A stretch of 64,000 bases of DNA, taken from positions 48,278,307-48,342,306 of the forward strand of contig NC_081378.1 in the NCBI RefSeq assembly GCF_030684315.1, in the 5' to 3' direction. Below are positions 683-60,269 of this stretch, piece after piece (within the stretch, counting starts at the first letter, position 1; every line of letters begins with the position of its first letter). This DNA comes from Stegostoma tigrinum (Eukaryota). The translations under genes were made by a program, and so were the position numbers. The notes below the pieces were generated by a model. The model had not been told where the DNA came from and made no database searches. It saw only the letters and a list, made by a program, of their open reading frames with translations.

Positions 683-2769
683 TATGGAGATAGCAAGAAT
701 TGCAGGTGCTGGAGTCAGAGTCAACAGAGTCAGGTCAGACAGCATCACAGGAGCATAAAAGTTAACATTTCAGGTCAGGACCCTTCTTCATAACTGGAGA
801 GGGGGAACGGAACTCTGAAATAAATGGGGAGTGGTTGGAGCTGGGGAAAGGTAGGTGGGATGGTGATAGGTGGATGTAGACCGGGGTTCTGGAAATTGAT
901 CAGTGCGAAGGGTAGGGCAGATAGGCGGAGAGAAGACAGACAGGTTGTGTCAGGTCAAGGAGGCAAGAAGGAGGATGTGTGGGGCTGGGGAAAGGTAGGC
1001 AGGGTGGTGATAGGTGAATGCAGGTAAGGGGTAGTGGGGATTGGGCATTGGGAAGGCTGGGAGAGAATTTGGACAGGTTGTATCAGGTCAAAGAAGGAGG
1101 TTTGGATGCGGGATGAGGCCAGGGGTAGGGAGATTTTAAAACTGGTGGAATCTATATCTGAGCTAAGTCTGCTTCCTCGTAGGGTAGTGGAACAGTCCCT
1201 TTTATGCTGTTACATCAGCACCATGCTTCACCTCTTTCTCAGTCATATTGATGACTGTATCAGTGCTACCTCATGCTCTCACGAGGAGCTTGAACAGTTC
1301 ATCAACTTTACTAACACCTTTCACCCCCAACCTCATTCACCTGGACCAACTCAAATTCCTGGACCTTTCTGTCTCCATCTCTGGTGACCGCCTCAACACT
1401 GACTTCAATGTCAAAACCACCAACTCCCATAGCTAAGATAACAAAGTGTGGAGCTGGATGAACATAGCAGCCCAAGCAGTATCTTAGGAGCACAAAAGCT
1501 GACGTTTTGGGTCTGGGCCCGAAACATCAGCTTTTGTGCTCCTAAGATGCTGCTTGGCCTGCTGTGTTCATCCATCTCCACACTTTGTTATCTCGGACTC
1601 TCCAGCATCTGCAGTTTCCATTATCTCTCAACTCCCAAAGCTACCTATACACCATCCCATATGCCTCCCCTCACCCACCCTCCTGCAAGAATGCGATCCC
1701 TACTCTCAGCTTCTCTGCTCCGTCACATCTGCTCCCAAGATGGAGTGCTCCACTCCTGGATATCCCAGATGTCCTCCTATTTTAAGGACTGCAACTTGCC
1801 CCCTTCGGTGATCAAAAATGCCATCAACCATATCCCTTGCATTTCCCACACCTCTGCTCTCAAGGCCCCTCTCCCCAAAAAATAAAGACAGCGTCCCCCT
1901 GGTCCTCATATACCACTCCACCAACCCCTGCATCCAGTGTATCATCCTCTGCCATTTCTGCCACCTAAAATCTGACCTCATGACCAAAGAGATATTTCCC
2001 TCCCCAACCCTATCTGCCTTTTGTAGGGACCGCTCACTCTGCGACTCCCTGATCTGCTCCACACTCCCAACTAACCCCACCATACTTGGCACCTTTCCCT
2101 GCAACCGTAGGAAGTGCTACACCTGCTCCTACACCACCCCCTCAGTTCCAGTTAAGGCCCAAAGCAAACTTTCCCTATCTAGCAGGGGTTAGTCTGTACC
2201 TCCTCCAACCTGATCTACTGCATCCATTGCTCCTGATGTGGCCTCCTCTACATCAGTGAGACCAAGCTCAGACTCAGGGACTGTTTCATGGAGCATCTGT
2301 GCTCTGTGAACAATAATCGACAGCACCTTCCAGTTGCTAACCATTCTAACTTCCCCCTACTCCCTTGATGACATGTCTATCCTGGGCCACCTCCAGTGTC
2401 ACAATGACGCCACACGCAAACTGGGCAAGCAGCACCTCATGTTCCACGCAGGAGCCTACAGCCTGTGGCCTGAACATAGAACTCACCATTTTTAAAATCT
2501 CCCCACCCCCAGCCTCATCCCACATCCAAACCTATCACCACCCCACCTATCCTTCCTCTTGCCTCCTTGACCTGACACAACCTGCCCATCTTCTCTCCCA
2601 TCTATCTGCCCTACCCTTTCCACTGACCAATCCCCACCACCCTCTACCTGCACCCACCTATCACCATCCCACCTACCTTCCTCCAGCCCTATCCCTCCTC
2701 TTTCTATTTATTTCCCAGCTCCCTACCTCCTCCACAGTTCTGAAAGAGGTTCCCAACCCAGAATGTCAA
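683..2769 (+). mobile_element. Penelope-like element with inverted 5' pseudo-LTR (683-~1150 minus; body plus)
   Basis: Decayed RT C-terminus and GIY-YIG motif (NLIYCIHCS*CGLLYISETK near 2207); hammerhead-like ends; TSD cttattaccaga 671-682 / cttattatcaga 2770-2781. Confidence 0.85.
1436..1628 (+). mobile_element. Fold-back PLE pseudo-LTR mini-element nested in a PLE
   Basis: Hairpin ~1436-1593 plus a ~35-nt one-sided tail; 15-bp TSD caactcccatagcta / caactcccaaagcta. Confidence 0.85.
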
Positions 2770-2789
2770 CTTATTATCAGACTTTGCTT

Positions 2790-4330
2790 TTTGATTCATT
2801 CATGCAATACAGGTGAACTTGACTAGGCCAGTATTTATTGGCCATCCCTGATACCCTTGAGGTGGTGGTAGTGAGCTAGCTTCTTGAACCACTATGGTTC
2901 ATTTGGCATAAGGATATTTACATTGCTGTTTAGAAGGAAGTTCCAGGATTTTGACCCAACAACAGTGAAGGAGTGTTGACATAGTTCCACATTAGCTGTG
3001 TGCCTTGCAGAGGAGCTTTCAAATGGTGGTGTTCCCATGTGTCTGCTGCCCTTATCTTCCTAGTTTTTAAGAGATCATGAGTTTGGAATGTGCTGTCCAA
3101 ACAGCCCTGATGCATTTCTGCAGGGAATCCAGAAGATGGTATGCACTGCTGCCATTGTCATTGTTTTTGTAGAACCAGTATTTATAAAGCTGATTCAATT
3201 CAATGGTCACCTCGAGGATATTATTACTGGGAATTCAGTGATGGTTATATTGAATGTCAAAGGACAATGGTTTGATGATCTCCATTAAGAGAGAATCTAT
3301 GTTTCAGATTTGTGCGACGACTTGATGCCCGAGCCTGTATGTTTTCCAGATTTTGGGCATATGGACACAGATGGCTTCACTGTCTGAAGTATCGCAGATG
3401 GTACTTAACATCATGCAATCATTGGCAAATATTGCCACTTCTAACCTTATGATGGAGGGAAGGTTGCTGATGAAATAGCTGGAGATGGTTAGATTTACAT
3501 ACTACCCTGAGGAACACATGCAGAGCTACCCTGGAGCTGAAATGACTGACCTCCAACAACCATAACCATCTTCAATTTTACAGGTATGACTTCAACCAGG
3601 AAGAAATCTTTTTCTGATTTCTAATTATTCCTGGTATTGCCAAGGGACCTTGATGCTGTACTCAATCTCAAGCTTAAAGAGTATCATTCCTACCTCACCT
3701 TTTGGATCTAATTCTATTGTCTATATTTGGACCAAAGTTGCAATGAGATCAGAAGCTGGAGAAATCCAAACTAAGAGTCATTATGTAGGTTATTCCATTA
3801 TGAGTGCCACATGATATTACATGGAATGAATCAAATTTGTTAAAGTCTGGTAACGGTGATATTTGACCACAGGAGAAGGCCAAGACGGAGCACATGTGTC
3901 CGGCTGGGTATAGATGCAAATAAAACAGCCTTGTCTTTTGGGCTGTTGTGGTGGACTCTCCTATCATTGAGGGTAACAAGATTTGTGAAGTCTGTTTCTC
4001 CTTTTAGTGATTTAATTAACCATCGCTATTTAGGGTTGGATGTAGTGGGACTGCAGAGCTTAGATCTAATTCACTGACTGTGAGATGGCTTCTCCATGCC
4101 TACTGCATGTTGTTTCTGCTATTTAGTGTAAAGGTACTCCTACATTGGAGCTTCATGAGATTGACATTTGAGCTTTAGATAAGCTTGCCGCTGTTCCAGA
4201 CATGCATTCCTGCATTCTTTTTTCGACCAGGGTTGTCCTCCCAGCTTGATGGTAATGGTGGACTACTGGATATGCTAGGGCTTTCATACGGAGGTTGAAT
4301 ACAAATCTCCTCCATCTGAAGGCCCACTGT
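2790..4330 (-). mobile_element. Decayed LINE, same family as 10686-14750
   Basis: Reverse complement of the family's 3' tail (tttattggccatccct) and RT-region fragments. Confidence 0.7.
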
Positions 4331-4342
4331 GCCTCAGAGAAA

Positions 4343-7835: not shown

Positions 7836-8782
7836 CGCAGCTGGCCTATATTCTCTGCACCACGTTCTTATTATCCAGAAAAAAAATTTCATACAGAAGT
7901 ATATATTTCTGACTTCACATACATGAAAGGACAGCACTTCAGGTTGAGGTCCTTCAGTAACAGCCAGTGTTATGAGCAAACTTTTTCATCTTTGGTTGCC
8001 AGCTGTATCAAAAGGATTGAAAATATTTTCAAGGGAGTGCAGAAACAAGAGAGTTCCATGAGGTCACGTACACAACTATTTGAAGATAGAAGGAGAAATG
8101 AATGGATCTGCTTTAAAAAGAGGTACCTTGTATTAATAAATAAAGCACAAATGGAAGGAGTTTTGCCATTTTTTTAATGACACACTGGGTAGGGCCCACC
8201 TAGAATATTGTATTATTGTTGTGTAATTATAAGCATCACATTTACAAAAAGGATGCCAGGAAATGCTACAGAGAAGATTTACTATATATTTTCATTACCA
8301 GGAAGGTCAGCAACCAGAGAATGCAGATTTAAAACAATTAGCAAAAGGATGAGAAGAAATTGCTTTGATTCTGACCTGTGATGCTCTGGAATGTACTACA
8401 TGGAAGTGTGGTGGAAGGAGATTCAGTAGTAACTTTCAAAGATGATTTGGATACACACTTGAAAAAGAGAAACTTTCAGGGCTGTGGGGAAAGGACAGAC
8501 GAGTAGGACTAATAGGTATGTCAAAGAGCTGGAACAAACACAAACCAAACTGTCTCCTGCTTTATGATTCTAATTAATCTTTCCTTGCCGAATTAGAAAC
8601 ATAAGAGCAGATTTTCAACTTCAGGTGTCTTGTAAATACATATTAGATATTTAGTTAGAAGCTCCAAAGTCTAAATGTTGTAAAGACCCAGCACAGGTAA
8701 ATGGATTGAATAACCTTCTTTGTAAATTCCATTATTTATAAAATTTGGAGTAAAACTATGAAGCCAACAAAAGAATTAAGTA

Positions 8783-9013
8783 GAGATAATGGGAACTGCA
8801 GATGCTGGAGAATCCGAGATAACAAAGTGTGGAGCTGGATGAACACAGCAGGCCAAGCAGCATCTCAGGAGCACAAAAGCTGATGTTTCGGGCATAGACC
8901 GTTCATCAGAAAACGGTCTTTTTTGATGAAGGGTCTAGGCCCGAAACGTCAACTTTTGTACTCCTAAGATGCTGCTTGGCCTGCTGTGTTCATCCAGCTC
9001 CGCACTTTGTTAT
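8783..9013 (-). mobile_element. Fold-back PLE mini-element with two inverted hammerhead motifs
   Basis: Arms ~8819-8908 / 8923-9013, one-sided ~35-nt tail, approximate TSD aaaagaattaagta / aaaaggaattaatta. Confidence 0.85.
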
Positions 9014-10685: not shown

Positions 10686-13600
10686 AGAGGCAACGACCTA
10701 GTGGTATTATTGCTAGAATCCAGAAACTCAGCTAATGTTCTGGGGACTCAGATTTGAATCCTGCCATGGCAGATGGTGGAATTTGAATTCAATAAAAAAA
10801 ACTCTAAAATTAAGAATCTACTGATGACCATGAAGCCATTGTCAATTGTCAGAAAAACCCATCTAGTTCACTAATGTCCTTCAGGGAAGGAGCTCTGACA
10901 TCCTCACCTGTGTGGCTTATATGTGACTCCAGACCCACAGCAATGTGGTTGACTCTCAACTGCCCTCTGAAATGGCTTAGCAAGCCATTCAGTTGTACCA
11001 ATCACTACAAAGTCTCAAAAAAATGAAGGCGGATAGATCACCTGGCATCGATATAGGCACTGGAAAAGACAATGGCAGAAATAGCCCTGTCAAACTAGCA
11101 AAGCCCTCCTTACTAACATCTGGGGGTTGGTTACAAAATTGAGAGCGCTGCCTCACAGACTAGTCAAGCAACAGTGTGACATAGTCATACTCACAGAATC
11201 ATATCTTACCAACAATGTCCCAGACACCACAATCATCATCCCTGGATATGTCCTGTCCATTGGCAGGATAGACCCAGCAGAGGTGGTGGCACAGCGGTAA
11301 ACAGTTGGGAGGGAGTTGCCCTTGGGAGTCTTCAATGTTGACTCCAGACCTCATGAAGTCTCATGGCTTTATGTTAAACGTGTTTTTCTTGAATTTTTTT
11401 AACAAATCTGTTACAATGCCAAAATAGGTTTTAGTTAAGATCCTTCAAATAAGCATAGATTCCGAAGTAACTATAGATCCACCTATATACACAAAAAAAA
11501 TCATTAAAGAAAAAGTATCAAATTAGTTTCAGACAGTAAAAGCAGCCTTCCATATCATTGCAGAGAGAAATGAATCAGCTAAGTATTTAGTTAATTGGCA
11601 GTTAATACAGTGCAGCTGGCAAATGTTACTTGAATACAGTATCCATTATGAAATGCCTCAAGAAGGAAGATAGGAAAGTCTGGGAAAAATATCATGAAAG
11701 ATGGCAGGGTGGACCACAAGCCTGTCCACCTCTGTCACTCAGTGATATGTTTAACTTAATTGGAAATACATTGAAGTTGCTAAAGCAAGCTTGAACTGTA
11801 TAAAGGTGCTGTACCAGAGAGCCAAATACAAAGGGATAACACAGCAGCGCTGACCAGTAGTAATCAAAGCTGGGTGCATGCGCTATAAATTTAAACTGTA
11901 TTAAGTTGAGACATTCTGAAGCTTTTTGTGTGTGCCTTATTGCTTTGAAGAAACAAATGTTACCTGACACCATCCCCTAACTCGGATTCTCATTGGAAAA
12001 TATATGAGATCTAACAACTGATTAATCAGTACTACACCATGCTGAACAACACTGAGAGGAAGCACTGAGCATAGTAAGAGCACAAAATGTACTCTGGATG
12101 GGGGATTTCACTGTCCACGATCAAGAGTGGCTCAGTAGCAGTACTAAATCGAGCTGGTCTGGTCCCAAAGGTTAGCTGCTGGACTGGGTCTGTGGCAGGT
12201 GGTGAGGGAACCAACAAGGTGGAAAAACATACTTGATATCATTCTTGCTAATCTGCCAGCTGCAGACAGATCTGTCCATAACGGTATCATTAAGAGAGAC
12301 CACCACACAGACCTTGAGGTGTTAACCTGGTGAAGCTACCAAACAGGACTTGCATGCCAAACAGCATAAGCAGCACGTGATAGACAGCACGAAGCAATTC
12401 CACACCAACAAATTCAGATCTAAGCTCTGCAGTGCTGCCACATCCAGTCATGAATGGGGGTGGACAATTAAACAACTCACTGGAGGATTAGGCTCCACAA
12501 ATATCCCCAACCTCAATGATGGAAGAGCCCAGCACATTCATGAAAAAGATAAGGGTGAAGGTTTTGCAGCAATCTTAAGCCAGAACTGCCATACTGATCT
12601 CAGCCTCCTATGGTGGTTCCCAGAATTAAACATGAGTCTTCAGCCAATTTGATTCATTCCGCATCACATCAAGAAATGGTTGGAGACACTGCTTACTGCA
12701 AAGGTATGGAACCTGACAACATTCCGGCAAGAGCACTGAAGACTTGTGCTTCTGAACTTGCTGCCCCTCTAGTCAAGCTGTTCCAGTACAATTACAATTC
12801 TACCCAAAATGTGGAAAGTTGTCCAGGTATGTCCTGTACAATAAAAGCAGGACAAATCCTACCCGGCCAATTACCGTTGTATCAGTCTACCCTTGATCAT
12901 CATTACAGTGACAGAAGGTGTCATCAACAGTCCTTTCAAGCAGCACCTGCTCAGCAATAACCTGCTCAGTGACGCCAAGTTTGGGTTCTGCCAGGGCCAC
13001 TCAACTCCTAACGTCATTGCAGCCTTGGTTCAAACATGGACAAAACAGCTGACTTCCAGAGGTGAGGTCAGCAGGACATCAAGGCAGCATTCAAATGAGT
13101 GTGGCATCAAGGACACCTGGCTAAACTGGAATCAACGGTGATCAGGGCAAAATCTCTTTACTGATGATCGAGGGTAGACTGATACAGCGGTAATTGGCCC
13201 AGTTGGATTTGTCCTGCTTTTAATGTACAGGACATACCTGGACAATTTTCCACATTGTTGGGTAGTATTGTAATTGTACTGGAGCAGCTTGGCTAGAGGA
13301 GCAGCAAGTTCAGAAGCACAAGTCTTCAGTGCTCTTGCCGGTATGTTGTCAGGGCCCGATGGTTAGAGTCATACCTGGCACATAGACAGATGGTTGTGAT
13401 TGCTGGAAGTGATTCATCTCAGTTCCAGGACATCAGGCATAGATAGAGTCGATAGCCAGAGACTATTTCCCAGGGCAGAAATGGCTAGCACGAGGGGTCA
13501 TAGTTTTAAGCTGGTTGGTGGAAAGTATAGAGGGGATGTCAGAGGCAGGTTCTTTACGCAGAGAGTTGTGAGAGCATGGAATGCGTTGCCAGCAGCAGTT

Positions 13601-15565: not shown

Positions 15566-16341
15566 CAATTTTTGACTTGCCCACTGAGTCAGTAAGTTTA
15601 TTCGCAAACGTTCCATCACCATGCTAGGTAACATCATCAATGCATCTCCAGTGAAACGTTGGTGTTTCTGTCCAGCTTGCTATTCATGCGTCATAGTTTG
15701 ATGGAGTAGGTGGTATCACTTCTCGATTTGTTCCTTAGTGATTAATATACAAGGTCCAGCTTTATACATTTATAAATTCCAGTCTGAGTGCTAGGCCTCC
15801 AGAAATTGTTGTGTGTGCCTTTGCTTGGCTTGTCCTAGAATGGCTATGTTGTCCCAGTCAAATTAATGTCCCTCTTGGTCATGTCTCTTCGGAGCTAGTT
15901 AGTGTTTATGAATCCTGATGGCTAGTTTCCTTCTGGTTTGCCCTACGTAATGTTTTTGGCAGTCTTTCCATCGTATCTTGTAAATAAAATTAGTTCTGTT
16001 AGTTTTGGTTGACACTAGGGAGACATCAGTCACCCTTCCATACATTAAGAACATATCTGAAATGACCACCAGATTACTCCACCCCTAGAAATCATGGTAG
16101 CCCACAAACTGACAGCTACTGATACACCGACCACTAAGAAACAAATCCAGAAGTGTTAATCCACCCCAACAACCCAAGAGAGATAAACAGCAAGGGGTAC
16201 AGAATACTGACACTTCACCAGAGGCGCACTGATGACTTTACATAGCATGGTGACAAAATGTTTGTGAACAAACTTACCAACTCAGCGAGCTAGACGACAA
16301 CAGCATCAACAACCCAAGCTACAAATCTTCTCAAAAACCTT
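15566..16341. mobile_element. Penelope-like element (second family) with inverted pseudo-LTRs
   Basis: Minus-strand GIY-YIG remnant (NFIYKIRWKDCQKHYVGQTRRKLAIRIH, ~15905-15995); exact 14-bp TSD gaaattattaggtg 15552-15565 / 16342-16355. Confidence 0.85.
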
Positions 16342-18004: not shown

Positions 18005-18362
18005 CTTTGATCCCGTTCGTTTTGTTTCTTCATCAGCTGATAGCTTCTTTTCGAGAGCTTGTTCCTCTTCAGGAATGTTTTGTTCTTCATGAGATTTTTG
18101 TTCTTCAGGTATGTTTTGGTCTTCAATAGTTTGGTATTCCTCTATCTCTCCTAGTGCCTCCATATCCTCATGTATATCCTGCCTAATTTCAACTGCAGCT
18201 GGCTTAGTTTTAAAAGCTCTCTGATGAGCATTAAACGCAGGACTGTGGCAGGATATGTGATCATAATGTGTATGTAAAATCCGTACAGCAATATCACTCA
18301 TGGCCAATGGTTTAGGGAGTTCAAATTCCATGTGATGCTTGACAAATGCATAACCTTTAAAC
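18005..18362 (-). CDS. DNAI7: DNAI7/CASC1 exon 9 (FKGYAF...FELPKPLAMSDIAVRILHTHYDH...acidic region...TGSK)
   Basis: ctcacag| 358 nt |gtatga; conserved SDIAVR.LHTHYDH motif followed by a Glu-rich segment; phase 2 to 0. Confidence 0.95.
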
Positions 18363-18618
18363 CTGTGAGAAAATCAGAATAAATTTTAAAAGTCTTTTGT
18401 TTTGGTAACTATCAGCAATAGTGATTGATAACAATAGGCTTAATTGTCCAGTAAGCTAATAAACAAACAAAATTTATATTCAAAGAATCCAATGTCAGGG
18501 GGATTTTATACATGCACTTCAGTTGCTGAATAAGACGAGCCATAATGTTCAATTACAGCATCCCCCTCAAGTGACTAATTCACAATTGTGGAAAAAAAAT
18601 AAATTCGAGTGACTAATA

Positions 18619-18855
18619 GAGATAGTAGGAACTGCCAATGCTGGAGAATTTGAGATAACATGGTGTGAAGCTGGATGAACACAGCAGGTCAAGCAGCATC
18701 AGAGGAGCAGGGAAGTTTGACGTTTCAGGCTGAGACCCTTCTTCAGAAGAAGAACTTCTTCAGAAGAAGGGTCTTGACCCGAAACGTCAAACTTTCCTGC
18801 TCCTCTGAAGCTGTTTGACCTGCTGTGTTCATCCAGCTTCACACCATGTTATCTC
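18619..18855 (-). mobile_element. Fold-back PLE mini-element with two inverted hammerhead motifs
   Basis: Arms ~18651-18748 / 18759-18856; TSD gagtgactaata 18607-18618 / aagtgactgata 18856-18867. Confidence 0.85.
18717..18748 (-). ncRNA. Minimal type I hammerhead ribozyme motif (best-preserved copy seen)
   Basis: Minus strand UU-CUGAAGA-A-GGGU-cuca-GCCU-GAAACGUC-AA: both core boxes, stem II and the palindromic ACGU in place of stem III; stem I is very short. Confidence 0.6.
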
Positions 18856-19822
18856 AAGTGACTGATACCTACTTCTGTAATTAAGGAAATGAGCAGTAAA
18901 TTGCAACACCTCAGTAATGACCCTCTTGTGCTTCTTCAACAGTTAATAAGTTCCCCAAACATCATATTTATTGCCATTCACTCTGGAGAATCTACTGCTT
19001 CTTCAAAATTTCTCAACAACAATTGGAAACAATTTAGCTGACGGGCTTAACTGCCCAGAGAAATTGTGTATACGTTAGTAAGTTCACTTCAGGAGAAGGC
19101 GGAAATGAAAATTTAGTTAAAATAAAGTTAAAATTTTCCTCTGAAAAAATGATAGCAAAAAATCCTGCTATTGATAATTTAAAGCGACTATAGTAGGGCA
19201 AAGCAATCAATTGACTCAATCTATGTGATGCAAACCAAATTTTTACAATCTCTGCAAAACCATAATTCCCTGGTGTTACCTTTACCCTAAACTCATACAT
19301 CTTATTCTTAATGATTCTGGCTTTTAGATTTCAGATAATCTCTACCCTTTCAGGCTTCATTTAATATTTCTGCCCTAGCTTACTAATGTTCTTCCTTTGC
19401 TCAACTCCCTTCCAAGTTTTACACATCTGTTAAGAGTCTTTTCCATTCCCTTTACATTTTTAATTCAAATGAATTTGAGCTACTTTTACTGCAGTGAAAG
19501 TCTGTGTTTCTGTACTTGCCTCATAGACCATTTGTCCTTTATTAGTCTGCCTTATTGTTATGGGAGGGGTTCAATCTAACACGTTTAATGTTCCTGCTCC
19601 CTATTCAGAAGAAACTTAAATGAATTTCTAACATTTTCCACCATTTACATAACTCTTTGTGCACATCCTACTCAGCATCCTGAAATCATTCCAACCATAA
19701 AGCAATATCTTTCTAAAGAAGCTCAGTCATAAACATTTTCATCTGTTTTGTAATAGTTTATGGATTACAGAGAAGTTGTACTGACTTGAATCACAAGGGC
19801 CTGCCCACAGTTGTTCTTTTTA

Positions 19823-21359: not shown

Positions 21360-21536
21360 AATAAAAACCGAAAGAACTGCGGATGCTGTAAATCAGGGAC
21401 AAAAACAAAGTTGCTGGAAAAGCTCAGATAATGAGTTCTGAGGAAAGGTCACTGGACGCAAAACCTTAACTCTGTTTTTTCCTTCACAGATGCTGCCAGA
21501 CCTGCTAAGATTTTCCAGCAACTTTGTTTTTGTTCT
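21360..21536. mobile_element. Partial fold-back PLE pseudo-LTR
   Basis: Inverted 'caaaaacaaagttgctggaaaa' / 'ttttccagcaactttgtttttg' with a degenerate ctgagga...aaac motif. Confidence 0.7.
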
Positions 21537-22261: not shown

Positions 22262-22598
22262 CTTGAGAAGATTTGTAGCTCAGGTTGAGGTTCTGGATGT
22301 GAGTTTGCTCGCTGAGCTGGAAGGTTAGTTTTCAGACGTTTTGTCACCATTCTAGGTAACATCATCAGTGAGCCTCCGACGAAGCGCTGGTGTTATGTCC
22401 CGCTTTCTATTTTCTGGTTAGGTTTCCTTGGGTTGGTGAATGGCAATGACATCACTAATCCAAGGAAACCTAACCAGAAAATAGAAAGCGGGACATAACA
22501 CCAGCGCTTCGTCGGAGGCTCACTGATGATGTTACCTAGAATGGTGACAAAACGTCTGAAAACTAACCTTCCAGCTCAGCGAGCAAACTCACATCCAG
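22262..22598. mobile_element. Young near-perfect palindromic PLE pseudo-LTR element
   Basis: 147-bp arms 22293-22439 / 22452-22598, 12-nt loop, ~31-nt one-sided tail, TSD agtcactat 22253-22261 / 22597-22605, hammerhead motif in each arm. Confidence 0.9.
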
Positions 22599-23402: not shown

Positions 23403-26400
23403 CTAGGAGATTATGATATTTTTAAACTTTTCCATGTACAGTTGTGACTGATGGTGGACAATTAAATGGCTCACTGGAGAGGAGATTCCACAAATATCTC
23501 CATTCTCAATGATGGTAAAGCTTAGCACATCAGTGAAAAAGATAAGGCTGAAGCATCCACAGCAATCTAGAGGCAGAAGTGCCGAGTGGATGATCCCTCT
23601 TGGCCTCCTCCAGTGCTCCCAAGCATCACTGATGCCAGTCTTCAGCCAATTCAATTCACTCCACATGATACCGTGATATCAAGAGACACTGGGTATGACA
23701 AAGGCTATGGGGTTTGACAACATTCTGGCAATAGTACTGAAGACTTCTGCTCCAGAACTTTCCACTCCTCCAGCCAAGCTGTTCCCGTGCAGTTACAACA
23801 ATATGGAAAATTGCTCAGGTATGTCCTGTATACAAAATGCAGGGCAAGTCCAACTTGGTTAATGAACCCCTCATTGGTTTACTATCAATCGTAAGTTAAG
23901 TGATGGAAGCTGTCATCTAGAGCGCTATCAAGCAAAAACTAATAGAACCGTGGATGCTGTTAAACAGGAACAAAAACACAAGTTGCTGAAAAAGCTCAGC
24001 AGGTCTCCCAAGCTGACTGTACCCCCGCCCCACACAGCTCACTTCTACCTCCTTCCAAAACTCCACAAACAGGACTGCCTGGGCAGACCCATTGGTTCAA
24101 TCTGCTCTTGCCCCATGAAACTCATCTTAACCTACTTTCGCTGTTTTCTCTTCTCGGTCCAATCCCTGCCCATGTACATCCATGATTCCTCTGATGCCTT
24201 ATGATAGTTTTAAAACTTCTAGTTTGCCAGTTCCAGCTGCCTCCTCTTTACCATGGATGTGCAATCCCTTTACATGTCCATTCCCCACCAGGAGGTCTTA
24301 GGGATCTCCATTTCTTCCTGGAGCAAAGACTTGAACCATCCCCACCCACCACCACCTGCCACCACTTGGCCGAGCTTGTCTTTGCCCTCAACAACTTCTC
24401 TTTTAGCTCCTCTCATTTTCTTCAGGTAAGAGGGGTGGCCATGGGTACCCACATGGGCCCCAATTAGGACCTTCTCTTTGTGAGGTACATGGACTATTTC
24501 TTGTTCTAGTCCTATTCCAGATCCCACCCTCAACTCTTTCTCTAAAAGAAAACATTGGTGCTGCTTCCTCCTCTCATCCAGAATTGGAAAAGTTCATTGA
24601 TTTTGCTTCCAATTTCTCTTTGCCCTCTCTGTCACTTGGTCTATTTCCGACTCCTACTTTCCCTTCCTCAACATTTTTGTTTCCATTTCTGGGGATAGAC
24701 TAGCCATTAATATCCACTATAAACCCAATGACTCCCACAGCTACCTGGACTATACATCCTCACACCCCACTTCCTGTAAAGACTCCATCCCATTCTCTCA
24801 GTTCCTCCATCTCCATAGTTTGTGTTCAGATGAGGTCAACTTCGACAAGGGAACCTCAGAAATGACCACCTTCTTCCTCAACTGAGGATTCCCCAGCACC
24901 GTTGTCGACAGGGCCCTCAACCAGGTCCGACCCAACTGCCGCACTTCCACCCTCACCCCTTCTCTTCCCTTTAGCAATAGCGATAGAATTTCCCCTTATC
25001 CTCACCTACCATCCCACCAGCATCCACATCCAGAAGATCATCAAACACCACTTCCACCACCTCCAGTGAGATGCCACCACCAGAAACATATTCCTCTCCC
25101 CTCTCTTGTCTGCCTTCCGCAGGAACTGTTTCCTCAGGGATTCCCTGGTCCACTCTTCCTTCGCTCTCAACAACCCCTCCACAGCCCTATGGCATCTTCC
25201 CCTGTAATTGGCGAAGGTGCAACACCTGCCCATTTACCTCCTTCCTTCCCAGTATCCAAGAGCCCAAACATACCTTCCAGGTGAAGCAACATCTAGGTTA
25301 TGCTCACAAAACAGACCCTGCGCTACCTGTTGTCTACGATTTTAACACATCATCCTGTTCCCTGGCCAACATCTGTGTCTCAGACATGCTGCAGTGTTGC
25401 AGTGAGGCTCAACGCTAGCTGAAAGAACAACACTTCATTTTCCACTTGGAGACCCTGCAACTCTCTGGACTCAATACTGAGTTCAATAATTTTGAGGCCT
25501 CAACTCTCCCATGTCCTAACCCCCGACCCCACACACCAGGCCTTGTTATCACAGAGCCTACTATTACATACTATCTGTTGTTAGTTACTAACAGTCTCCA
25601 TTAACAACTATTCACACTCCCAGCGGGATCGTTATCATCTCCTTTGTCTGTCCAACTGTTCTTCTCTCTCTTTGGGCTCTATCCTATCGTTTACCCCCTA
25701 CCCCACAACCCCTCCCTATTTTGTGCATACAAACCTATGTTTTCCCAGCTACCATCAATTCTGAGGAAGGGTCACTGGACCTGAAATGTTAACTCTGATA
25801 TTTTTCTTCATGGATGCTGTCAGACCTGCTGAGCTTTTCCAGTGCTATCAAGCAGTTTGGTTCTGCCAGGGCCACTCAGCTCATTACAGCCATGGTTCAA
25901 ACATGAACACAACAGCCGAATTCCAGAAGTGAGGTGAGAGTGACAGCCCATGATATCAAGGTCACGTTCGAACAGGTGTGGGAATCAGAGAGAAAACTCC
26001 CCGCTGGGTGGAGTTACAGCTGGCACACAGGAAGATAGTTGTGGTTGTTGGAGGTCAGTCATCTCAGATCTAGGACATCTCTGAGGAGTTCCTCAGGGTA
26101 GATTAATGGACCCAAACATCTTCAACTGCTGCAGCAATGACGTTCCCTCCACCATAAGGTCAGAAGTGGGGATTTTTACTGATGATTGCACAATGTTCAG
26201 CACTATTCGTGACTGTTCAGATACCAAATCAGTCCATGCATCAAAACCTGGACTTATCCAAATGACTTTTAAACATTGTAATTATACCACTTCCTCAAGA
26301 AGTTCATCCCATACCCGAACCCACTCTGTGTAAAAAATTCACCCCCATGTCTTTTTTAAATCTCTCTCCTCTCACCTTAAAAATGTGGTCCCCAGTCTTG

Positions 26401-28391: not shown

Positions 28392-29322
28392 CATAAAAAT
28401 CAAAAGAACTGTGGATGCTGTAAATCAGAAAGAAAAACAGAAATTGCTAGAAAAGCTCAGCAGGTCTGGTAGCATCTGTGGAAAGAAATCAGAGTGAACA
28501 TTCCGGGTCGAGTGAACATTGCAGGTCGAGTAACCCTTCCTCAGAACTTATCATAGCTAGGAAAATGTGTGTTTACATGCAGAAAATAGGGTTGGGGGTG
28601 GGGGGCTAAGGAGTAAACATTAGGTGGGGAGACCAAACAGAGAGAGAGAACAGTTAGACAGTCAAACGAGTGGATAACAATTTGGCTAGGAGGATGAATA
28701 GCTATAAGTGGCCACTTTTAGTGGCTAACAATGGGTTATCTGTAAAAACAGACTATGTGATAACAAGGCCTGGCATGTGCAGGTTGGAGTAGTGACATGG
28801 GAGAGCTCAAGCCCTAAAATTGTTGAACTTGATATTGAGTCCAGAAGATTGTTGTGTTCCCAACTGGAAAATGAGGTGTTGTTCTTTCAGCTTGTGCTGA
28901 GCTTCGCTGAAACACTGCAGCAAGCCTGAGACAGAGATGTTGGCCAGAGAACAGGGTGGTGGTAAAGTGGCAGACAACTGGAAGTTCAGGGTCTTTTTAC
29001 AGACAGAACGTAAGCATTCTGTGAAGCAGCCACCCAGTCTATGCTTCATTTGCCCAAAGTAGACGAGACCACATTGTGAACAGCGCATGCAGTAGACTAG
29101 ATTGTGTGAAGCACAGATAAAGCCCTGCTTCATCTGGAAGGTGTGTTTGGGCTCTTGGGTACTGAGGAGAAGGAAATAAATGGACAGAACAAACAATTTC
29201 TGTGGTTGCAGGGATAGGTGCTATGGGGCTGTGAGCGGCATTGGGAGTGAGGTAAGAGTGGACCAAGGTGTACCGGAGAGAATAATCTCTGGAGAAGACT
29301 CACAAAGAAGGAGAGGGGAAGG
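28392..29322 (-). mobile_element. PLE 3' part with GIY-YIG domain and pseudo-LTR
   Basis: ORF 28807-29196: NLVYCMRCSQCGLVYFGQMKHRL...EQHLIFQLGT...GLNIKF. Confidence 0.88.
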
Positions 29323-29329
29323 ATATTAT

Positions 29330-29783
29330 TAAATGGGAAAGGGTTCAGAAAAGAGTTATCAGGATGTTGCTGGGATGGAAGGTTTGAGTTATAAGGAGAG
29401 TCTGGATAGACGAAATTTTTTTCACTAGAGCACAGGAGGTTGAAAGGTAGAGATTTGTAAAATCATGCAGGGCATAGATAAGGTGAATAGCAAAGGTCTC
29501 TTCCCTGAAGTAGGCGAGTTCAAAATTAGCAGACATATTTCTAAGGACATGAGGGGCACCTTTTTTACACAGGTTTGTGTGAGGAATGAAATGGCAGAGG
29601 AAATAATGGATGCAGGTACAGTTACATCATTTAAAAGATGTTTGGATAAGTACATGAATAGGAAAGAGTTGTAGGGATATGGGCTAAACACAGGCAAGCA
29701 GGCCTAGTTTAGGGTAGGAAAATGGTCATTGTGGACCAGATGAACCAAGGGTCTGTTTCCATGCCGTATGACTCGATGGCTCT
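29330..29783 (+). mobile_element. CR1-type LINE 3' end
   Basis: MQGIDKVNSKGLFP...FFTQ; tail 'gtatgactcgatggctct'. Confidence 0.82.
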
Positions 29784-35180: not shown

Positions 35181-35236
<56 letters not shown>

Positions 35237-45900: not shown

Positions 45901-46869
45901 CTGCAGTACCTGAGGGTATCAGTGAATCTGCCCTTGCTGTGCCTTTCACAAATTGGGTTAGACAAGAGTCCTGAACACATTGGAGAAACTCTACTCTCTT
46001 GACCCTTTTGCCTATGTTTTGTCCAAAAAATATCAAGGTAGTTGAAATTCTCAATGATTAGTTTCCTATGATTTTACTCAATTCCCTGACTTATAAGCAT
46101 CTTTCAACCTCCACCTTCCTTCAGTCTTCCAGCTCCCACTTCACAGGATTTCTGCATTGCCTCAGCTATCTGTATTTCTTTATTCTGCTTAGGTTCTTTT
46201 GTTTCTTGTTCTTTTGTTTCAATTAATAGCTGTGCTTCCTCTTCATAATGGTTACATTGGAGAACTAAGAGAAAAAAAGTTTTAGAAGTTGGGTAAGTAA
46301 TTAGTAGCGCAGAAATATTGACTTGGGAAGTCAACTTATAGCTGAATCAGATGAGGTGTGCAGCAAGTGGCTAATTTGGCATTAGGCCTTTATACCCTTA
46401 TAAGTGTTTCTCTATTCTGACAGAAGTTGTAAGTTCCTCTTTTCTTTCTTATATTTGTAATGATGATTAGATACAGCAAAGATAATTGTGCGGTAGATTT
46501 TGATCTAATTGCTGGCTGTTAAAAACATCACATGGTTGTGGAGCACATACAGTGAAATGTACCAGCAGACATACGCTTGTTACACAATCTGATTTTCCTT
46601 TCAATCATTTAAATGGGTGGAATGTTAGTGGCGTTTTCTCATGTATGGATGGCAGATGCAGTCCCATTTCCTCCCCACACTCCATACAGGCAATGCCTAG
46701 CACCCAGTCAACAACAACTGCTAACTCTGTAACCGTTTTCATCCTTGCAATCCATATAAATTTTCTCCAATTCTGGCCCCAATGCCACTCTGATTTCCAT
46801 TACTTCGCTATTGGCAGCAGTGCTTTCAGCTGTCCAGGGTTTGGACCTCTGTATTTCCGTCCTTGCAGG

Positions 46870-47056
46870 ACAAACTCAGCAGATCTGGCAGTATCTGTGG
46901 AGAGAAAACAGACTTAACACTTCGAGTCTGATGACACTTCGTCAGAACAGTTTTGTATTTTGTGTCCACAGATGCTGCCAGACCTGCTGAGTTTCCCCAG
47001 CAATTTCTGTTTTTGTTTCAGACTGCCAGCATCTGCAGTTCTTGGATTTATTTTCT
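46870..47056. mobile_element. Fold-back PLE pseudo-LTR remnant
   Basis: aaactcagcagatctggcagtatctgtgg / ccacagatgctgccagacctgctgagttt inverted pair plus tail. Confidence 0.75.
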
Positions 47057-49826: not shown

Positions 49827-49851
49827 TAACTAAAAACAAAAGAAGCTTTAC

Positions 49852-55857: not shown

Positions 55858-55859
55858 AT

Positions 55860-56273: not shown

Positions 56274-56460
56274 AGAGATAGTAGGAACTGCAGATGCTGG
56301 AGATTCTGAGATAACAAGGTGTAGAGCTGGATAAACACAGCAGGCCAAGCAGCATCAGAGGATCAGGAAAGCTGACGTTTCGGGCCTAGACCCTTCTTCG
56401 GAAAATCTGAAAGGCCTGTTCGGCCTGCTGTGTTCGTCCAGCTCCACACCTTGTTATCTC
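56274..56460 (-). mobile_element. Fold-back PLE mini-element at the start of DNAI7 intron 1
   Basis: Same family as 8783-9013; one hammerhead motif (minus, 56371-56402) and a truncated second arm. Confidence 0.85.
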
Positions 56461-56580
56461 TGGTGTAGACTGAGATTAGTTTTCTTTTGTCGGTGGGTAC
56501 TGGATGGGCCGAAGGGCCTCTTCTGTAACATATTATAGTACTGCATTTTTTAAAAAAAACCTCTCCCTGCTTGAACTCAC

Positions 56581-56583
56581 CAT
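56581..56583 (-). CDS. DNAI7: DNAI7/CASC1 coding exon 1 (ATG only)
   Basis: Minus strand reads gccaagATG|gtgagt: good Kozak context and a consensus donor at the CpG island edge; phase 0 fits exon 2. Confidence 0.75.
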
Positions 56584-56626
56584 CTTGGCTTCTTGTTCGA
56601 GGAGCTGTTCACAATAAAAACACAAA

Positions 56627-56713
56627 GTTGCCCGATATAACCGCAGACAGGTCGAAGGCCCGGCCGCGTTGCTAGGGACAAGCTTGTTTACCACGGCTCC
56701 GTTGCTGGGAGAC
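56627..56713. promoter_or_regulatory. Cluster of RFX X-box-like motifs with a forkhead (FOXJ1-type) site
   Basis: GTTGCCCGATATAAC 56627-56641, GTTGCTAGGGAC 56668-56679, TGTTTAC 56685-56691, GTTGCTGGGAGAC 56701-56713. Confidence 0.55.
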
Positions 56714-56799
56714 GCTCCCGGCCGCAAGACGCAGGCGCGGCACACGTCGCCTCTCCCAACCCCCATGCCCGCTGCCGCAAAGGACTGAGTACGACAGGG

Positions 56800-56890
56800 G
56801 CCGGCGGTCAGTTTGCGGCAACGGCCTCCGTCACTGCACCAGTGGCTCCCCTCACCCTGCGGTTTTCGTCGTCGGTGTCTGCTGCCGCCG
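56800..56890 (+). other. ETFRF1: Putative non-coding first exon of ETFRF1 (start approximate)
   Basis: CpG-rich segment ending ccgccg|gtaggg; the exon at 59080 has an acceptor and therefore needs an upstream exon. Confidence 0.45.
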
Positions 56891-57224
56891 GTAGGGCCTG
56901 GGATTGTAATTGAGGCTCGGTTACTAGGTGTAACGGGGGGAGAGAGAGAGAAAAAAAGGGTGGGATTGACGTTTTGTTGGAGTCAATGTGAAGGTGCTGA
57001 TGGTGTCAGGCAAGAACGAGGATAATGAACCACACAACATGGCTGAACATGGATCAGAATTAGGGTATAAATTGGGACAAGCCTGGGAGTGTGATTTGGT
57101 GTTACGGTCTCCATCAAAGAGCAAATCAGTACCAATCCGGGTGGTACAGGTAAAGTTTAGTGATTTGGAATATTTTTATTGCACAACTATACTTTTATTC
57201 ATTAAAAAACACCTGTGCATACAC

Positions 57225-57502
57225 AGAAAGAAAATCAGAAGTTGATGGCAAAACTCAGCAGGTCTGGCACCATCTGTGAAAAAAAAATCAGTTATCTTTT
57301 CGAGTCTGGTCATTCTTCCTCACAACTGAACTTTTGCCCGGAAGAGACAGGAGATGTTGAGTTCCCGGGAAGGGTTACTGGACCCGAAACGTTACTCTGA
57401 TTTTTTTTTCTTCCCTTAACAGATGCTGCCAGACCTGCTGAACGTTTCCGGCAACTCGTTTTTGTTGCTGATTTACAGCATCTGCAGTTTTTTTGGTTTT
57501 TA
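57225..57502 (+). mobile_element. Fold-back PLE pseudo-LTR element in ETFRF1 intron
   Basis: tcagcaggtctggcaccatctg / cagatgctgccagacctgctga inverted pair; 'gggttactggacccgaaacgtt' hammerhead half. Confidence 0.78.
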
Positions 57503-58337
57503 TATATGCACATACTGAAGCACTTCTGTGCAGTCTTTGCACATGAATAACAAAGAAACATTGGAATTTGGCATTTCCTGCAGTTGAAAAAAAAACAAGG
57601 CATTTCTTTTTTGTACATGACTGTGGTTGGGTCCATTTGACACATTGAGTGGGTTTGATAACTGAATGGATGCACATTTTAGTTTGTCAGAAAAATGCTA
57701 AATGGTGGTTCTCTCTCGGTGGCAGCTGCCCCAAGCTTTAGTGCTTACCTCAGCACATAGTCCTCAACCTTGGAATTTGAACATTTGGTTAGGTTCTTTG
57801 CAGTGGAAGGCCAGCAAGTTTTGGGCAACTCAAACAGCATCTCTGGAGTTGCTAGTCCTCTAGGTGCAGTCAGTGTTTGTCTCGATGTGCTCTACGATCT
57901 GTTCTCCAAAACGCACAGTCCTGTATCACAGCTGCGTGGGACAAACCACGACAAGAACCACTGCATCATCTTCACAACTTGGCAAAAACACATTCCCGAA
58001 GGAGACGTGGGACAGTCTGTTCGCCTAGTTCAGCTGCAGCATGTAGTGGTGGACAAAGTCTGGATGTAAAAATTAAGCTAGCAATGTCCTGGTGGTTTGT
58101 TTTGACAGTTCTTATCTATCAGCCAAACAGCGAATAGAGATGATGTTGGGAACTGAACTGGCTAGTTTTGTTCTTGTTTAACTGGTGAAATACCTATGTT
58201 TTGAATTGTGGTTATGTACTATAGTTGGAAGACAAAGCTTTATACCATCAGCAAATAAACAGATTTGTATTTAAATAATGCTTTTTATGATCACTAAAAG
58301 AAAGCAGGCTGATAGGGTCCTTGGTTTAAAAAGAACT

Positions 58338-58455
58338 CATCCAAATAACAGCATATCCAAAACAATGCAGTTCTCCCTCAGTACTATGCTGGACTGTAAA
58401 ATTTTGTAGATAAGTCTGGACCTTGTGACTCTGACAAGAGTGCCATGGCTGATGT
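58338..58455 (-). mobile_element. Deu-domain SINE fragment
   Basis: Reverse complement of 'cagcatagtactgagggagaactgcattg...tttggatgag'. Confidence 0.5.
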
Positions 58456-59118
58456 GAAGCAACGTATGGATGCCAGTTTTGATGAGTGAGCCACGGTCAT
58501 TACTTAGAAGGCAGAGGGCAGAAGGTTTTGAGCGGATGCTGTTTTTCCCAGATGTAACATTTTTTTTCCCTACATTCACAACTTTTAACAACACTTATCA
58601 GAATGTGACGTGAATTACTTTAGTGACCATTTACAATGTTTGATCTATGATAATCTAGTGATGGTTGTTGTTCTATTACTGAGTGTTAACTTTTGTTTAC
58701 ACACATTTCAAACATCACGTTTAAGGTCCTTCAAGGACAAAGGTTAGCCGATAAGTGGTTAAAATGAAATTATGATTGTCCACAAAATGAGGAACTAATT
58801 TGTATTCTAAAGTCAGCAAGGAAACTTAATGACCTTCTGTTGACAAGGAGAGCAAGAACTTTCCAGAATTTGTAGTATGAGGGGATCATTCTTAGTCGAA
58901 TAGTTAATGTAAATCATTGAAACACAAAACTCCATTACTCTTTGAACAGAAGTGTCAGCACAAATTCTAGACTCGAGTCTTGCAGTTGGGCTTGAATTCT
59001 GTCTTCAAGGGAAGTCTGCTTCACTGGCCTGAGACTGCTATTTAAAGTATGCCTAAACTTGACACCTGTTTTGTTACAGAGACAGTGAAAAGCTGGATGG
59101 AAAAGCTTTTGTTTGAAC

Positions 59119-59163
59119 ATGGCAAATCCTTTAAGAAGTGAAGTAATAAAACTGTATAAAAAT
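59119..59163 (+). CDS. ETFRF1: ETFRF1/LYRM5 first coding exon (MANPLRSEVIKLYKN)
   Basis: Acceptor ttgttacag| at 59079/59080, gaacATGg Kozak, donor |gtaagt at 59164; matches recalled human MANSLRGEVLKLYKN with the LYR-like LYK motif. Confidence 0.95.
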
Positions 59164-59941
59164 GTAAGTTTCTGGTCATCTACTTTAACTATAAATTTAA
59201 TGTTACACAGTTGTTTCAGCAGGTAGATCTACTACTTGATATGGTATTAAATCATGCAAAACCACAAATTTCCAGGCCAAACCCTTTGTTTGTAAACCTG
59301 TGCTGTCTTAGGTACACAGCAAATCAACCTCAATCCTCTTTAGGATAGGGTAGAGAAGGGTACAGAATCAATTGGGTTTCTAATTTCAAAATCTAATTAT
59401 CTTTGTGGTACTTTAAAGCAACCTGCCATGACATCACCTGGGCAGGTGGAACCTTCCGCCCTAGAGGAAGGGTCACTTCCTCTACGGTACAGAGCCCTCA
59501 AACTGAAACTGAGTTCATGTCCAAAAGAAAGGAACTGCTACAAAGAGCCATTTGCAACAAATTTTCACACCACTCAGGTTCAAACTCATGCCCCTGTGGT
59601 GATTAGAATCTGAATCTAGTGCCTTAGACCAAATTAAGTATTGTATCGTCAAGTAAAGCTGAAACAACAGAAAAGATCCTCAGTGGATGTGTAGCAACAC
59701 GTGTTAACAGAGACACAGTTAATGCGCCCAACCCTTTCTCAAGGTTGGACACAGTGGTACTATTAGGCAAATGTCAAAAATCCCTCAGGGTTTGGAACAC
59801 TAGATGGTCAATTGGAGGATAAGAATCAGAGGGCAAGAACTAGAGGCAGGAATTTATCCCGTGGCAAGGATGTGGAATGTGCACGAGTATGGTAGAGGCT
59901 TCAATCATGGCTTTCAAAAAGAGGTCTAAGAGAGTGTGGAA

Positions 59942-60269
59942 ATCCATAGTTTTGGCAAAGAGGTTATTGACTTGCTTGCCAAGCTGCCTTGTTCTCATTC
60001 AGATGTTTCATCACCATCCTAGGTGACATCAGCAGTGGAACCTCAATGAAGCGATGTTGTTCTACTCCATTTGGAACTTGTACTGTCTGGTCCGTTTATC
60101 GCGAGTAGTGTCATCGCTGGTTTTGATCTGTTTGGGTTTGTATATGGGATTGTATCTGTTTGTTGATAGAATTGCTTCAACAGAGGCTCCACTGCAGATG
60201 TCACCTTGGATGGTGATGAAAAGTTTAAATGAGAACAAGCCAGCTTGACAACCAAGTCAACAATCTCAG
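59942..60269. mobile_element. Older fold-back PLE element (family of 22262-22598) in ETFRF1 intron
   Basis: Inverted arms ~59967-60045 / 60182-60262; TSD gtgtggaa 59934-59941 / 60270-60277. Confidence 0.75.

What the first reader, a model, noticed from the sequence alone, without database searches (positions are those of the whole stretch)
683..60269. Several families of short, TSD-flanked fold-back elements built from hammerhead-bearing Penelope pseudo-LTRs
Seen: about eight 180-340 bp non-coding elements (1436-1628, 8783-9013, 18619-18855, 21360-21536, 22262-22598, 46870-47056, 56274-56460, 57225-57502, plus 59942-60269) share one design. Each is an inverted pair of PLE pseudo-LTR ends with a short extension (often 30-40 nt) on one arm only and CTGANGA-[stem]-GAAACGT motifs near the fold; many have 8-15 bp TSDs. 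Coding PLEs in the window carry related ends and similar TSDs. Known: PLEs carry minimal type I hammerheads with a palindromic ACGU thought to act as dimers, and often insert as inverted partial repeats. Inference: these are either extreme fold-back products of PLE integration or MITE-like, ribozyme-processed non-autonomous retroelements that amplify independently in sharks. Fold points differ between copies, which favours de novo formation at each insertion.
Basis: partly seen in the sequence, partly recalled or inferred. Interest (0 to 1): 0.72.

Follow-up and report, generated by a model that had tools for sequence, protein, structure and literature searches.

The report
Twin-primed stubs of Penelope retrotransposons
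These small mirror-image insertions are very common stubs of Penelope-type jumping genes, likely made afresh at each landing when both cut DNA strands start copying the same RNA, so they are a known kind of debris that also records how this poorly understood class likely inserts.

Summary
The nine hairpin elements are real, but they are not a self-amplifying, ribozyme-processed family. They are the short end of a continuum (arms 14-1,400 nt) of head-to-head Penelope-like (PLE) insertions: 93 pairs in 1.37 Mb of unbiased genome, about 200,000 by extrapolation. The parent is a Neptune-type RT + GIY-YIG element.

Junctions are almost all unique (64 distinct of 66). Exactly one arm carries the 35-nt tail (61 of 63). 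In 34 of 66 pairs neither arm contains the other, which excludes snap-back copying there. Sister arms share rare variants and correlated lengths, and young TSDs are 13-16 bp.

Short arms stop at a cliff 30 nt below a TATA-like box, at the hammerhead's 5' edge and often after an extra G. They do not stop at the cleavage site. Best reading (0.7): both nicked strands prime reverse transcription at two fixed sites of one uncut RNA, run to its capped 5' end, and are end-joined.

The inverted pLTR + tail + TSD design is published; I found no paper with these rules. The scan noted the same pattern before on other DNA (318 notes, at least 35 genomes).

The parts
1436..1628 (.). Family A pair: tail-less arm (+65 to -6 relative to the hammerhead cut site) and tailed arm (-18 to +100). 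It folds inside hammerhead stem II, has a 15-bp TSD and is nested in the ORF of the 683-2775 element
8782..9013 (.). Family A pair: tailed arm (+100 to -34) and tail-less arm (-32 to +63), 11-bp TSD; holds the only exact hammerhead core of the nine (minus strand)
18618..18856 (.). Family A2 pair: tailed (+100 to -29) and tail-less (-29 to +67), 10-nt junction insert, 11-bp TSD
21360..21536 (.). Family B pair: tailed arm +104 to +37; the tail-less arm starts at the predicted transcript start after an extra G; neither arm contains the other; no TSD found
22262..22598 (.). Family C (Penelope/Poseidon-type) pair: tailed (+72 to -105) and tail-less (-115 to +42), arms 99% complementary, 9-bp TSD
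46863..47056 (.). Old family B pair, decayed core, no TSD found
56274..56460 (.). Family A2 pair: tailed (+100 to -30) and short tail-less arm (+22 to +66), 11-nt insert, at most a decayed TSD
57225..57503 (.). Old family B pair: tail-less left arm, tailed right arm, about 30-47 nt junction insert; the right arm starts at the predicted +1 after a G
59942..60269 (.). Divergent family C-like pair, arms 86% complementary, 8-bp TSD, decayed cores
683..2775 (+). Older coding PLE of the same design: inverted 5' arm (about 683-1160) plus a sense body with RT-thumb, Cys-linker and GIY-YIG remnants, 10-bp TSD
23934..25842 (+). Coding family B insertion: tailed stub 23934-24006 in inverted orientation, then ORF remnants 24010-25502 and the family B end with hammerhead
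28393..29515 (-). 5'-truncated coding family B copy with tailed end

Best explanation
These elements are short insertions of Penelope-like retrotransposons with two inverted ends, one tail and a target duplication, most likely made anew at each site when both nicked DNA strands prime reverse transcription on the same uncut RNA. Inferred steps: (1) The GIY-YIG enzyme, probably as a dimer, nicks both strands about 14 nt apart in family A and about 9 nt apart in C. (2) One target 3' end starts cDNA at the distal site (+100, with tail) and the other at the proximal site (+65, no tail). (3) In Neptune-type families A and B, most cDNAs start in the 5' leader of the transcript and run off its capped 5' end at -31/-33, 30 nt below a TATA-like box and at the first base of hammerhead stem I, often adding a C opposite the cap. 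(4) The two cDNA 3' ends are trimmed and joined by palindromic microhomology or short templated inserts, then filled in. The ribozyme is a passenger inherited from the parent's pLTR, and the stubs are dead ends. Shown: anatomy, parentage, one-tail rule, length coupling, TSD lengths, end positions. Inferred: the transcript start, the cap origin of the G, one RNA for both arms, the dimer, the repair route.
For: Parent: L135 carries a 686-aa ORF with RT (E 3e-5) and GIY-YIG (E 0.002; both below Pfam cut-offs) and ends in the family A terminus. In L287 the tail runs straight into the 5' end of the ORF. 93 outward pairs against 1 inward pair in 137 x 10 kb. One tail in 61 of the 63 classifiable family A pairs (of 69 in all), 0 with two tails, p=2e-16 against 50%. 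In family C, 14 of 14 partner arms found among 29 tail-selected copies are tail-less. 14-30-nt remnants obey the same rule in 7 of 8 short cases, including tail-only remnants with no overlap to the partner. The tail-less arm reaches further upstream in 34 of 66 pairs, which snap-back cannot give. Arm lengths correlate (rho 0.70; 15 both long, 52 both short, 2 mixed). Sister arms are concordant at subfamily sites (0 of 16, 0 of 30 and 0 of 44 discordant at three sites). They share 13 rare variants against a null mean of 2.9 (max 9), and the L102 arms are 99.9% alike over 1,379 nt against 99.3% for the best other copy. TSD in 34 of 40 young pairs, 30 of these 13-16 bp. Cliff: 75 family A arm ends at -36..-27, 0 at -46..-37. 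The TATA-like box lies 26-27 nt before the core in 115 of 123 long A copies and 26 nt before it in 11 of 12 B copies. G before the predicted +1 in 15 of 27 stops against 39 of 247 elsewhere. Junction overlap of 3 nt or more in 15 of 38 insert-free junctions against 6% simulated. PMC11167929 (main text read): an anole PLE cuts and extends both strands, starts RT at two sites that define the tail, is predicted to be dimeric and uses uncut RNA.
Against: No RNA data: no RNA holder was listed, so the transcript start is only predicted. The G excess is uneven (B 9 of 12, A1a 4 of 7, A2 1 of 6, E 1 of 2). I noticed it before counting, and the control is diluted by subfamily differences. Family C shows no cliff (ends from -6 to -900). 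Many single arms have neither a partner remnant nor a TSD (31 of 49 short young solos), so double priming is not shown for all insertions. The sister arm is the closest match in only 7 of 14 long pairs and 15 of 53 overall. The two arms of 8783 differ at three sites (-19, -13, +16) where both variants recur in other copies, so two RNAs or later conversion cannot be excluded. Shared variants could also come from gene conversion between arms. One junction (-28/-28) recurs, and fold-point sharing exceeds the permutation null (6 vs 1.4, p=0.008).
Confidence: 0.7

Rival explanations
1. Snap-back: one strand primes a tailed cDNA whose 3' end folds back and copies itself; the endonuclease then trims the copy at +65.
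For: It explains correlated arm lengths, near-symmetric long pairs (-1308/-1307, -166/-168, -229/-233) and shared rare variants. 1436 folds at the stem II hairpin. PMC8557442 (passage) suggests the tail comes from endonuclease-mediated resolution.
Against: It predicts the tailed arm always reaches at least as far upstream; the opposite holds in 34 of 66 pairs. Tail-only remnants sit opposite tail-less arms with no shared sequence. Single arms end at +65 as often as at +100 (78 vs 71).
Confidence: 0.1
2. Double priming, but on two separate RNAs of the same active subfamily, with the stop at -31 due to an RT pause at the hammerhead structure rather than the RNA's 5' end.
For: The sister arm is not the best match in 38 of 53 pairs. 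The cliff coincides with the hammerhead's 5' edge, so structure and transcript start are confounded. The 8783 arms differ at recurrent variant sites.
Against: Length coupling persists among long arms with no common stop (rho 0.78, n=15). A pause should fall at the 3' foot of a helix, not after the RT has read through it. The extra G and fixed TATA spacing fit a capped start. Family C has a hammerhead but no cliff.
Confidence: 0.13
3. MITE-like or retrozyme-like non-autonomous elements that are cut out by their hammerheads and re-amplify as units.
For: Very high copy number. Real hammerhead cores in the families. L043 and L057 share an identical 29-nt junction with the tail on the same side. 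1436 and 8783 have near-twin junctions elsewhere (93-94%).
Against: 64 of 66 junctions are distinct. The recurrent one is a 5-nt palindrome at the commonest stop, and the same symmetric fold recurs in another subfamily (L121). The closest match to the 8783 junction carries the tail on the other arm, and a 1436-type junction recurs in subfamily A2. Four genome searches found no exact twin among the 40 scored candidates each. No enrichment at the cut site. The core is locked in a -166 kcal/mol hairpin. Over 750 different joints appear in contigs of public runs.
Confidence: 0.05
4. Assembly chimeras or DNA-transposon MITEs.
For: Palindromes are a known assembly artefact (recalled).
Against: Arms have diverged with CpG-type decay. 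TSDs are 13-16 bp, not TA or 8 bp; ends are asymmetric; the sequence is continuous with an RT ORF. Contigs of run X4 join both flanks of 8783 to the element (may be the assembled sample).
Confidence: 0.02

Closest known systems
EN+ PLE insertions with inverted pLTR, one-sided tail and TSD (Adineta Pen2a_Av, PMC3846280; scheme in PMC8557442 Fig. 2 legend; D. virilis Penelope, PMC2377424)
   Same: Inverted 5'-truncated copy, 30-40 bp tail on one arm, TSD, TATA/Inr-like motifs in the pLTR, microhomology junctions.
   Different: Here both arms are usually shorter than one pLTR and there are about 10^5 copies. The tail is not 'optional' but on exactly one arm (61 of 63). TSD length is nearly fixed per family, and arm ends mark one position.
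Poseidon_Ac in vitro system (PMC11167929)
   Same: Two internal RT start sites defining the tail near the ORF start, both strands cut and extended, uncut RNA as template.
   Different: That paper saw no difference in start site between strands; the genomic pairs here imply that the two strands of one event use different sites. It proposes multi-copy transcripts and, in the parts read, does not treat inverted stubs. Families A and B are Neptune-type.
Minimal type I hammerheads of metazoan PLEs (PMC4209133)
   Same: CUGANGA, bulged base, G-C-closed stem II, palindromic ACGU (AGCU in family E); that paper notes opposite-strand pairs 100-700 bp apart in Schistosoma.
   Different: Family A stem I is only 2 bp (B and E up to 4, C 3). 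Most stub copies have decayed or truncated cores.
Non-LTR retrozymes (bioRxiv 10.64898/2026.07.22.740005)
   Same: Non-coding, PLE pLTR-derived, hammerhead-bearing.
   Different: Retrozymes are head-to-tail tandems with a ribozyme in each unit; these are head-to-head and have unique junctions.
L1 twin priming (recalled, not from a call)
   Same: Both target strands prime cDNA on one RNA, giving an inversion inside a TSD.
   Different: In L1 the second primer lands at a variable internal site and the two parts barely overlap; here it starts at a fixed site 35 nt from the first, so the 3' end is duplicated.

Membership tests
EN+ Penelope-like elements | Parent ORF with RT and C-terminal GIY-YIG | tested here: met
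   L135, 686 aa: RVT_1 E 3e-5, GIY-YIG E 0.0023 (both under curated cut-off); YIDD motif visible; family C copy L223 shows YVDD and GIY-YIG-like motifs
EN+ Penelope-like elements | pLTR followed by a 30-40 bp tail that leads into the ORF start | tested here: met
   Two 3' end modes 35 nt apart; L287 tail continues into the ORF
EN+ Penelope-like elements | Inverted 5'-truncated copy and TSD | tested here: met
   93 outward vs 1 inward pairs; TSD in 52 of 92 sample pairs, 34 of 40 young
Neptune clade (families A, B) | Cys-rich linker between RT and EN; placement on an RT tree | tested here: inconclusive
   A CxxxxCxxC linker is visible in L135/L102 and absent in family C; no tree was built
Minimal type I hammerhead | Conserved core, stem II, palindromic helix III | tested here: met
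   122 cores vs 0-2 shuffled; different stem sequences in four families; exact in only 1 of 9 window elements
Minimal type I hammerhead | Self-cleavage | not testable with these tools
   Needs an in vitro assay; the indirect genomic test at +1 was negative
Non-LTR retrozyme | Head-to-tail tandem units each with a full hammerhead | tested here: not met
   Pairs are head-to-head
Non-LTR retrozyme | Circular RNA | not testable with these tools
   No RNA holder listed
MITE (DNA transposon) | Symmetric TIRs, superfamily-fixed short TSD, uniform length, transposase parent | tested here: not met
   Asymmetric ends, 13-16 bp TSD, continuous arm lengths, RT parent
Independently amplifying non-autonomous element | Internal junction shared by many loci | tested here: not met
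   64 distinct of 66; no exact twin for four window junctions; the sample covers 0.04% of the genome, so small bursts could be missed

The most novel reading that the evidence does not exclude
The short arms are a PLE counterpart of retroviral strong-stop DNA. A dimeric enzyme starts two cDNAs in the 5' leader of one capped RNA that begins with the hammerhead. To copy the ORF it must jump to the RNA's 3' end, using the 31-nt hammerhead body as terminal redundancy (start site at the 5' end, ribozyme cut at the 3' end, held together by the palindromic helix III). The stubs are failed jumps. This would give the PLE ribozyme a role and link PLE replication to LTR-type strand transfer.
Probability: 0.15. 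Interest if true: 0.75.

Novelty: new member of a known kind. Interest (0 to 1): 0.42.

Why it matters
How PLEs form their tandem/inverted ends and tail is described as unresolved (PMC8557442, passages). About 10^5 tiny double-ended insertions in one genome give quantitative rules that an existing in vitro system (PMC11167929) can test directly: one tail per event, coupled arm lengths, a fixed stagger, and a stop at the transcript start rather than at the ribozyme cut. Practically, such hairpins will be misannotated as MITEs or miRNA precursors, and as long perfect hairpins in introns they would be a large source of double-stranded RNA. As a new element class the finding does not hold.

Tried and rejected
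Rfam: no hammerhead hit; the 14 matches were all below gathering score. Pfam on nine window ORFs: only the unrelated LINE RT at 41265 hit. Cleavage-site enrichment of arm ends: none in A (7 vs 23, p=0.22) or B (1 vs 8). Cap-G scar at -32 in long copies, a prediction of the strand-transfer idea: not seen (2 of 123). RNA evidence: no RNA holder listed; only contigs could be laid, and its joint table is censored for short skips, so I drew no position statistics from it. A genome search with the youngest family A end returned nothing (common words are skipped). One search stopped with a script error and was redone as without the junction-selected loci L168-L215 and duplicates. The peak of arm ends at +17 was treated as a subfamily alignment artefact. 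Tail status in family B was not counted because one reference lacks the tail. Target-junction microhomology (2 nt or more at 13 of 22 tail-less ends and 7 of 22 tailed ends) is suggestive, but some large values are boundary artefacts, so it is not used as main evidence. No target motif beyond mild AT richness (22 TSDs). Literature searches found no paper on the one-tail rule, twin priming or capped-end run-off in PLEs. The library lacks most subscription journals and Repbase/Dfam notes, and I read no supplements (PMC11167929 Figs S1-S2 and PMC4209133 Figs S2-S4 may bear on this).
Full report
OBSERVATION. The window is G000:C33:48278307-48342306 in a 3.2-Gb genome. All nine listed elements are inverted pairs of three families: A (1436, 8783, 18619, 56274), B (21360, 46870, 57225) and C (22262, 59942). 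Five have clear TSDs of 8-15 bp, two at most decayed ones, two none. Only 8783 keeps an exact hammerhead core; 1436 has lost CUGANGA altogether. The motif is real at family level: 122 cores in 1.37 Mb against 0-2 in five shuffles, with different stem sequences in four families and a palindromic helix III (ACGU; AGCU in family E). Coordinates below are relative to the predicted cut site.

PARENTAGE. I drew 137 stretches of 10 kb at fixed positions on the large contigs. Family A ends belong to a PLE: L135 has a 686-aa frame with RT and GIY-YIG matches (weak, below Pfam cut-offs) and a Cys-rich linker. It detects coding remnants in the window at 1187-2456, 24010-25502, 28813-29515 and 36009-37116. 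Family B ends adjoin those at 24010 and 28813. A family C copy has RT and GIY-YIG-like motifs without the linker and an ORF running into the pLTR, as PMC3846280 describes for Penelope/Poseidon versus Neptune. In L287 the tail runs on into the 5' end of the ORF, so the order in a transcript is start, hammerhead, +65 site, +100 site, ORF.

CENSUS. The sample holds 93 outward pairs (A 69, B 21, C 3) and 1 inward pair, about 68 per Mb or roughly 200,000 genome-wide by extrapolation. Arms range from 14-nt remnants to 1,400 nt with the same design, so the short elements are one end of a continuum. 3' ends fall in two modes, about +65 and +100 in A. Of 69 A pairs, 63 could be classified: 61 have one tail, 2 none, 0 two (p=2e-16). 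In family C, all 14 partner arms found among 29 tail-selected copies lack the tail. TSDs scored in 52 of 92 testable pairs and in 34 of 40 young ones, 30 of them 13-16 bp; none of 300 shuffled flank pairs reached the threshold. Family C gave 9, 9 and 14 in the sample and 9 and 8 in the window.

DE NOVO OR AMPLIFIED? Oriented by the tail, 66 junctions give 64 distinct types. One type recurs three times (-28/-28 over a 5-nt palindrome), twice with an identical 29-nt string. This makes fold-point sharing exceed the permutation null (6 vs 1.4, p=0.008). I read it as a hotspot: -28 is the commonest stop and the same symmetric fold occurs in subfamily A2 (L121). Genome searches with four window junctions found no exact twin among 40 scored candidates each (best 94, 93, 87 and 94%). 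The closest match to 8783 has its tail on the other arm, and a 1436-type junction recurs in another subfamily. Contigs of public runs show over 750 different joints on the 8783 element. The stubs lack the TATA-like box, and their RNA would be a long hairpin (8783: -166 kcal/mol; 21 kcal/mol to unpair the core). Small bursts could be missed in a 0.04% sample.

HOW THE TWO ARMS ARISE. Snap-back of a tailed cDNA requires the tailed arm to reach furthest upstream. It does in 25 pairs, ties in 7, and does not in 34. Among short apparent solos, 8 have a tiny inverted remnant, and in 7 it has the opposite tail state; several are tail-only pieces sharing nothing with the partner. In those cases both arms must be templated separately, which fits priming from both target strands. 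They are nonetheless coupled. Lengths correlate (rho 0.70 overall, 0.78 among 15 long pairs, 0.43 among 49 short). Subfamily sites are concordant while CpG sites differ as expected from later decay, and rare variants are shared (13 vs 2.9). Against a single template: the sister is the best match in only 15 of 53 pairs (7 of 14 long), 8783's arms differ at three recurrent variant sites, and conversion could mimic sharing. Junctions show overlap of 3 nt or more in 15 of 38 insert-free cases (6% simulated); 28 of 66 have inserts, many resembling nearby element sequence by eye. That pattern resembles polymerase-theta end joining (recalled). 31 of 49 short young solos show neither remnant nor TSD, so other outcomes exist.

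WHERE SHORT ARMS STOP. Among 271 family A arms, 75 end at -36..-27 and none at -46..-37; the cut site is not enriched (7 vs 23). Family B ends cluster at -29..-35. The cliff lies 30 nt below a TATA-like box whose distance to the core is 26-27 nt in 115 of 123 long A copies and 26 nt in 11 of 12 B copies. B, A2 and E have an initiator-like motif there (consensus recalled), and it is also the first base of hammerhead stem I. Arms stopping exactly there are preceded by G in 15 of 27 cases against 39 of 247 at other stops, as expected if RT adds a C opposite a cap (recalled from L1 and retroviruses). The signal is strong in B (9 of 12), absent in A2 (1 of 6), and was noticed before it was counted. 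Family C has no cliff; family E was sampled too thinly (20 loci). No RNA data could test the start site.

COMPARISON. Papers seen: PMC3846280 parts 1-3 of 5 (inverted pLTR, optional 31-bp tail, 8-10 bp TSD, TATA and Inr in the pLTR); PMC8557442 passages (inverted truncated copy, 30-40 bp tail, mechanism undefined); PMC11167929 parts 1-2 of 4 (both strands cut and extended, two start sites, predicted dimer, uncut RNA used); PMC4209133 parts 1-2 of 4 (minimal hammerheads, opposite-strand pairs, low activity); PMC2377424 passages (TATA-less internal promoter in D. virilis, unlike here); bioRxiv 10.64898/2026.07.22.740005 part 1 of 5 (tandem retrozymes). No supplements were read. The architecture is therefore known. 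The one-tail rule, the exclusion of snap-back, the fixed stagger and the run-off at the transcript start were not found in eight searches. The scan's own index holds 318 notes on this theme in at least 35 genomes. Several reach the readings I had recorded beforehand; two claim a signal at the cut site, which I did not find.

VERDICT. Real and abundant, a new member of a known kind: dead-end, double-primed PLE stubs (0.7), not an independently amplifying ribozyme element (0.05). Their value is as a record of PLE integration. The bolder strong-stop/strand-transfer reading is not excluded, but its one test here, a cap scar in long copies, was negative. Interest 0.42.

Noticed in passing
window 18002-18373 (-): Exon-like frame matching dynein axonemal intermediate chain 7 (E 6e-10); several of the stubs may therefore lie in introns of this gene.
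   Followed up: partly
window 12712-13353: LINE-like fragment with a 200-bp inverted duplication (92%) unrelated to the PLE families; possibly an inversion of the twin-priming or fold-back type.
   Followed up: no
   Followed up: partly
L048:5135-5997, L025:1595-1738, L150:9379-9498, L121:3207-3308: Rare arms that end at +188 to +216, inside the ORF's 5' region, suggesting a third, more distal RT start site.
   Followed up: no
window 15577-15684 and 16185-16334: Older family C-related inverted pair about 500 bp apart.
   Followed up: no
window 34993-37906: Nested inverted repeats with PLE coding remnants (36009-37116) and a family B end at 37362-37469; structure not resolved.
   Followed up: no
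L026-L030; hits on C474, C443, C110, C82 and others: Near-identical copies with shared flanks on many small contigs, pointing to a large tandem or segmental repeat that carries family A copies.
   Followed up: no
family A leader (e.g. L135:5943-6075, minus): Hammerhead stem I is only 2 bp in the most active family, and a 13-codon upstream frame starts inside the core; the ribozyme may need a partner or be inactive.
   Followed up: partly
window 56533-56982: GC-rich stretch that looks like a gene start or CpG island next to the 56274 and 57225 elements.
   Followed up: no
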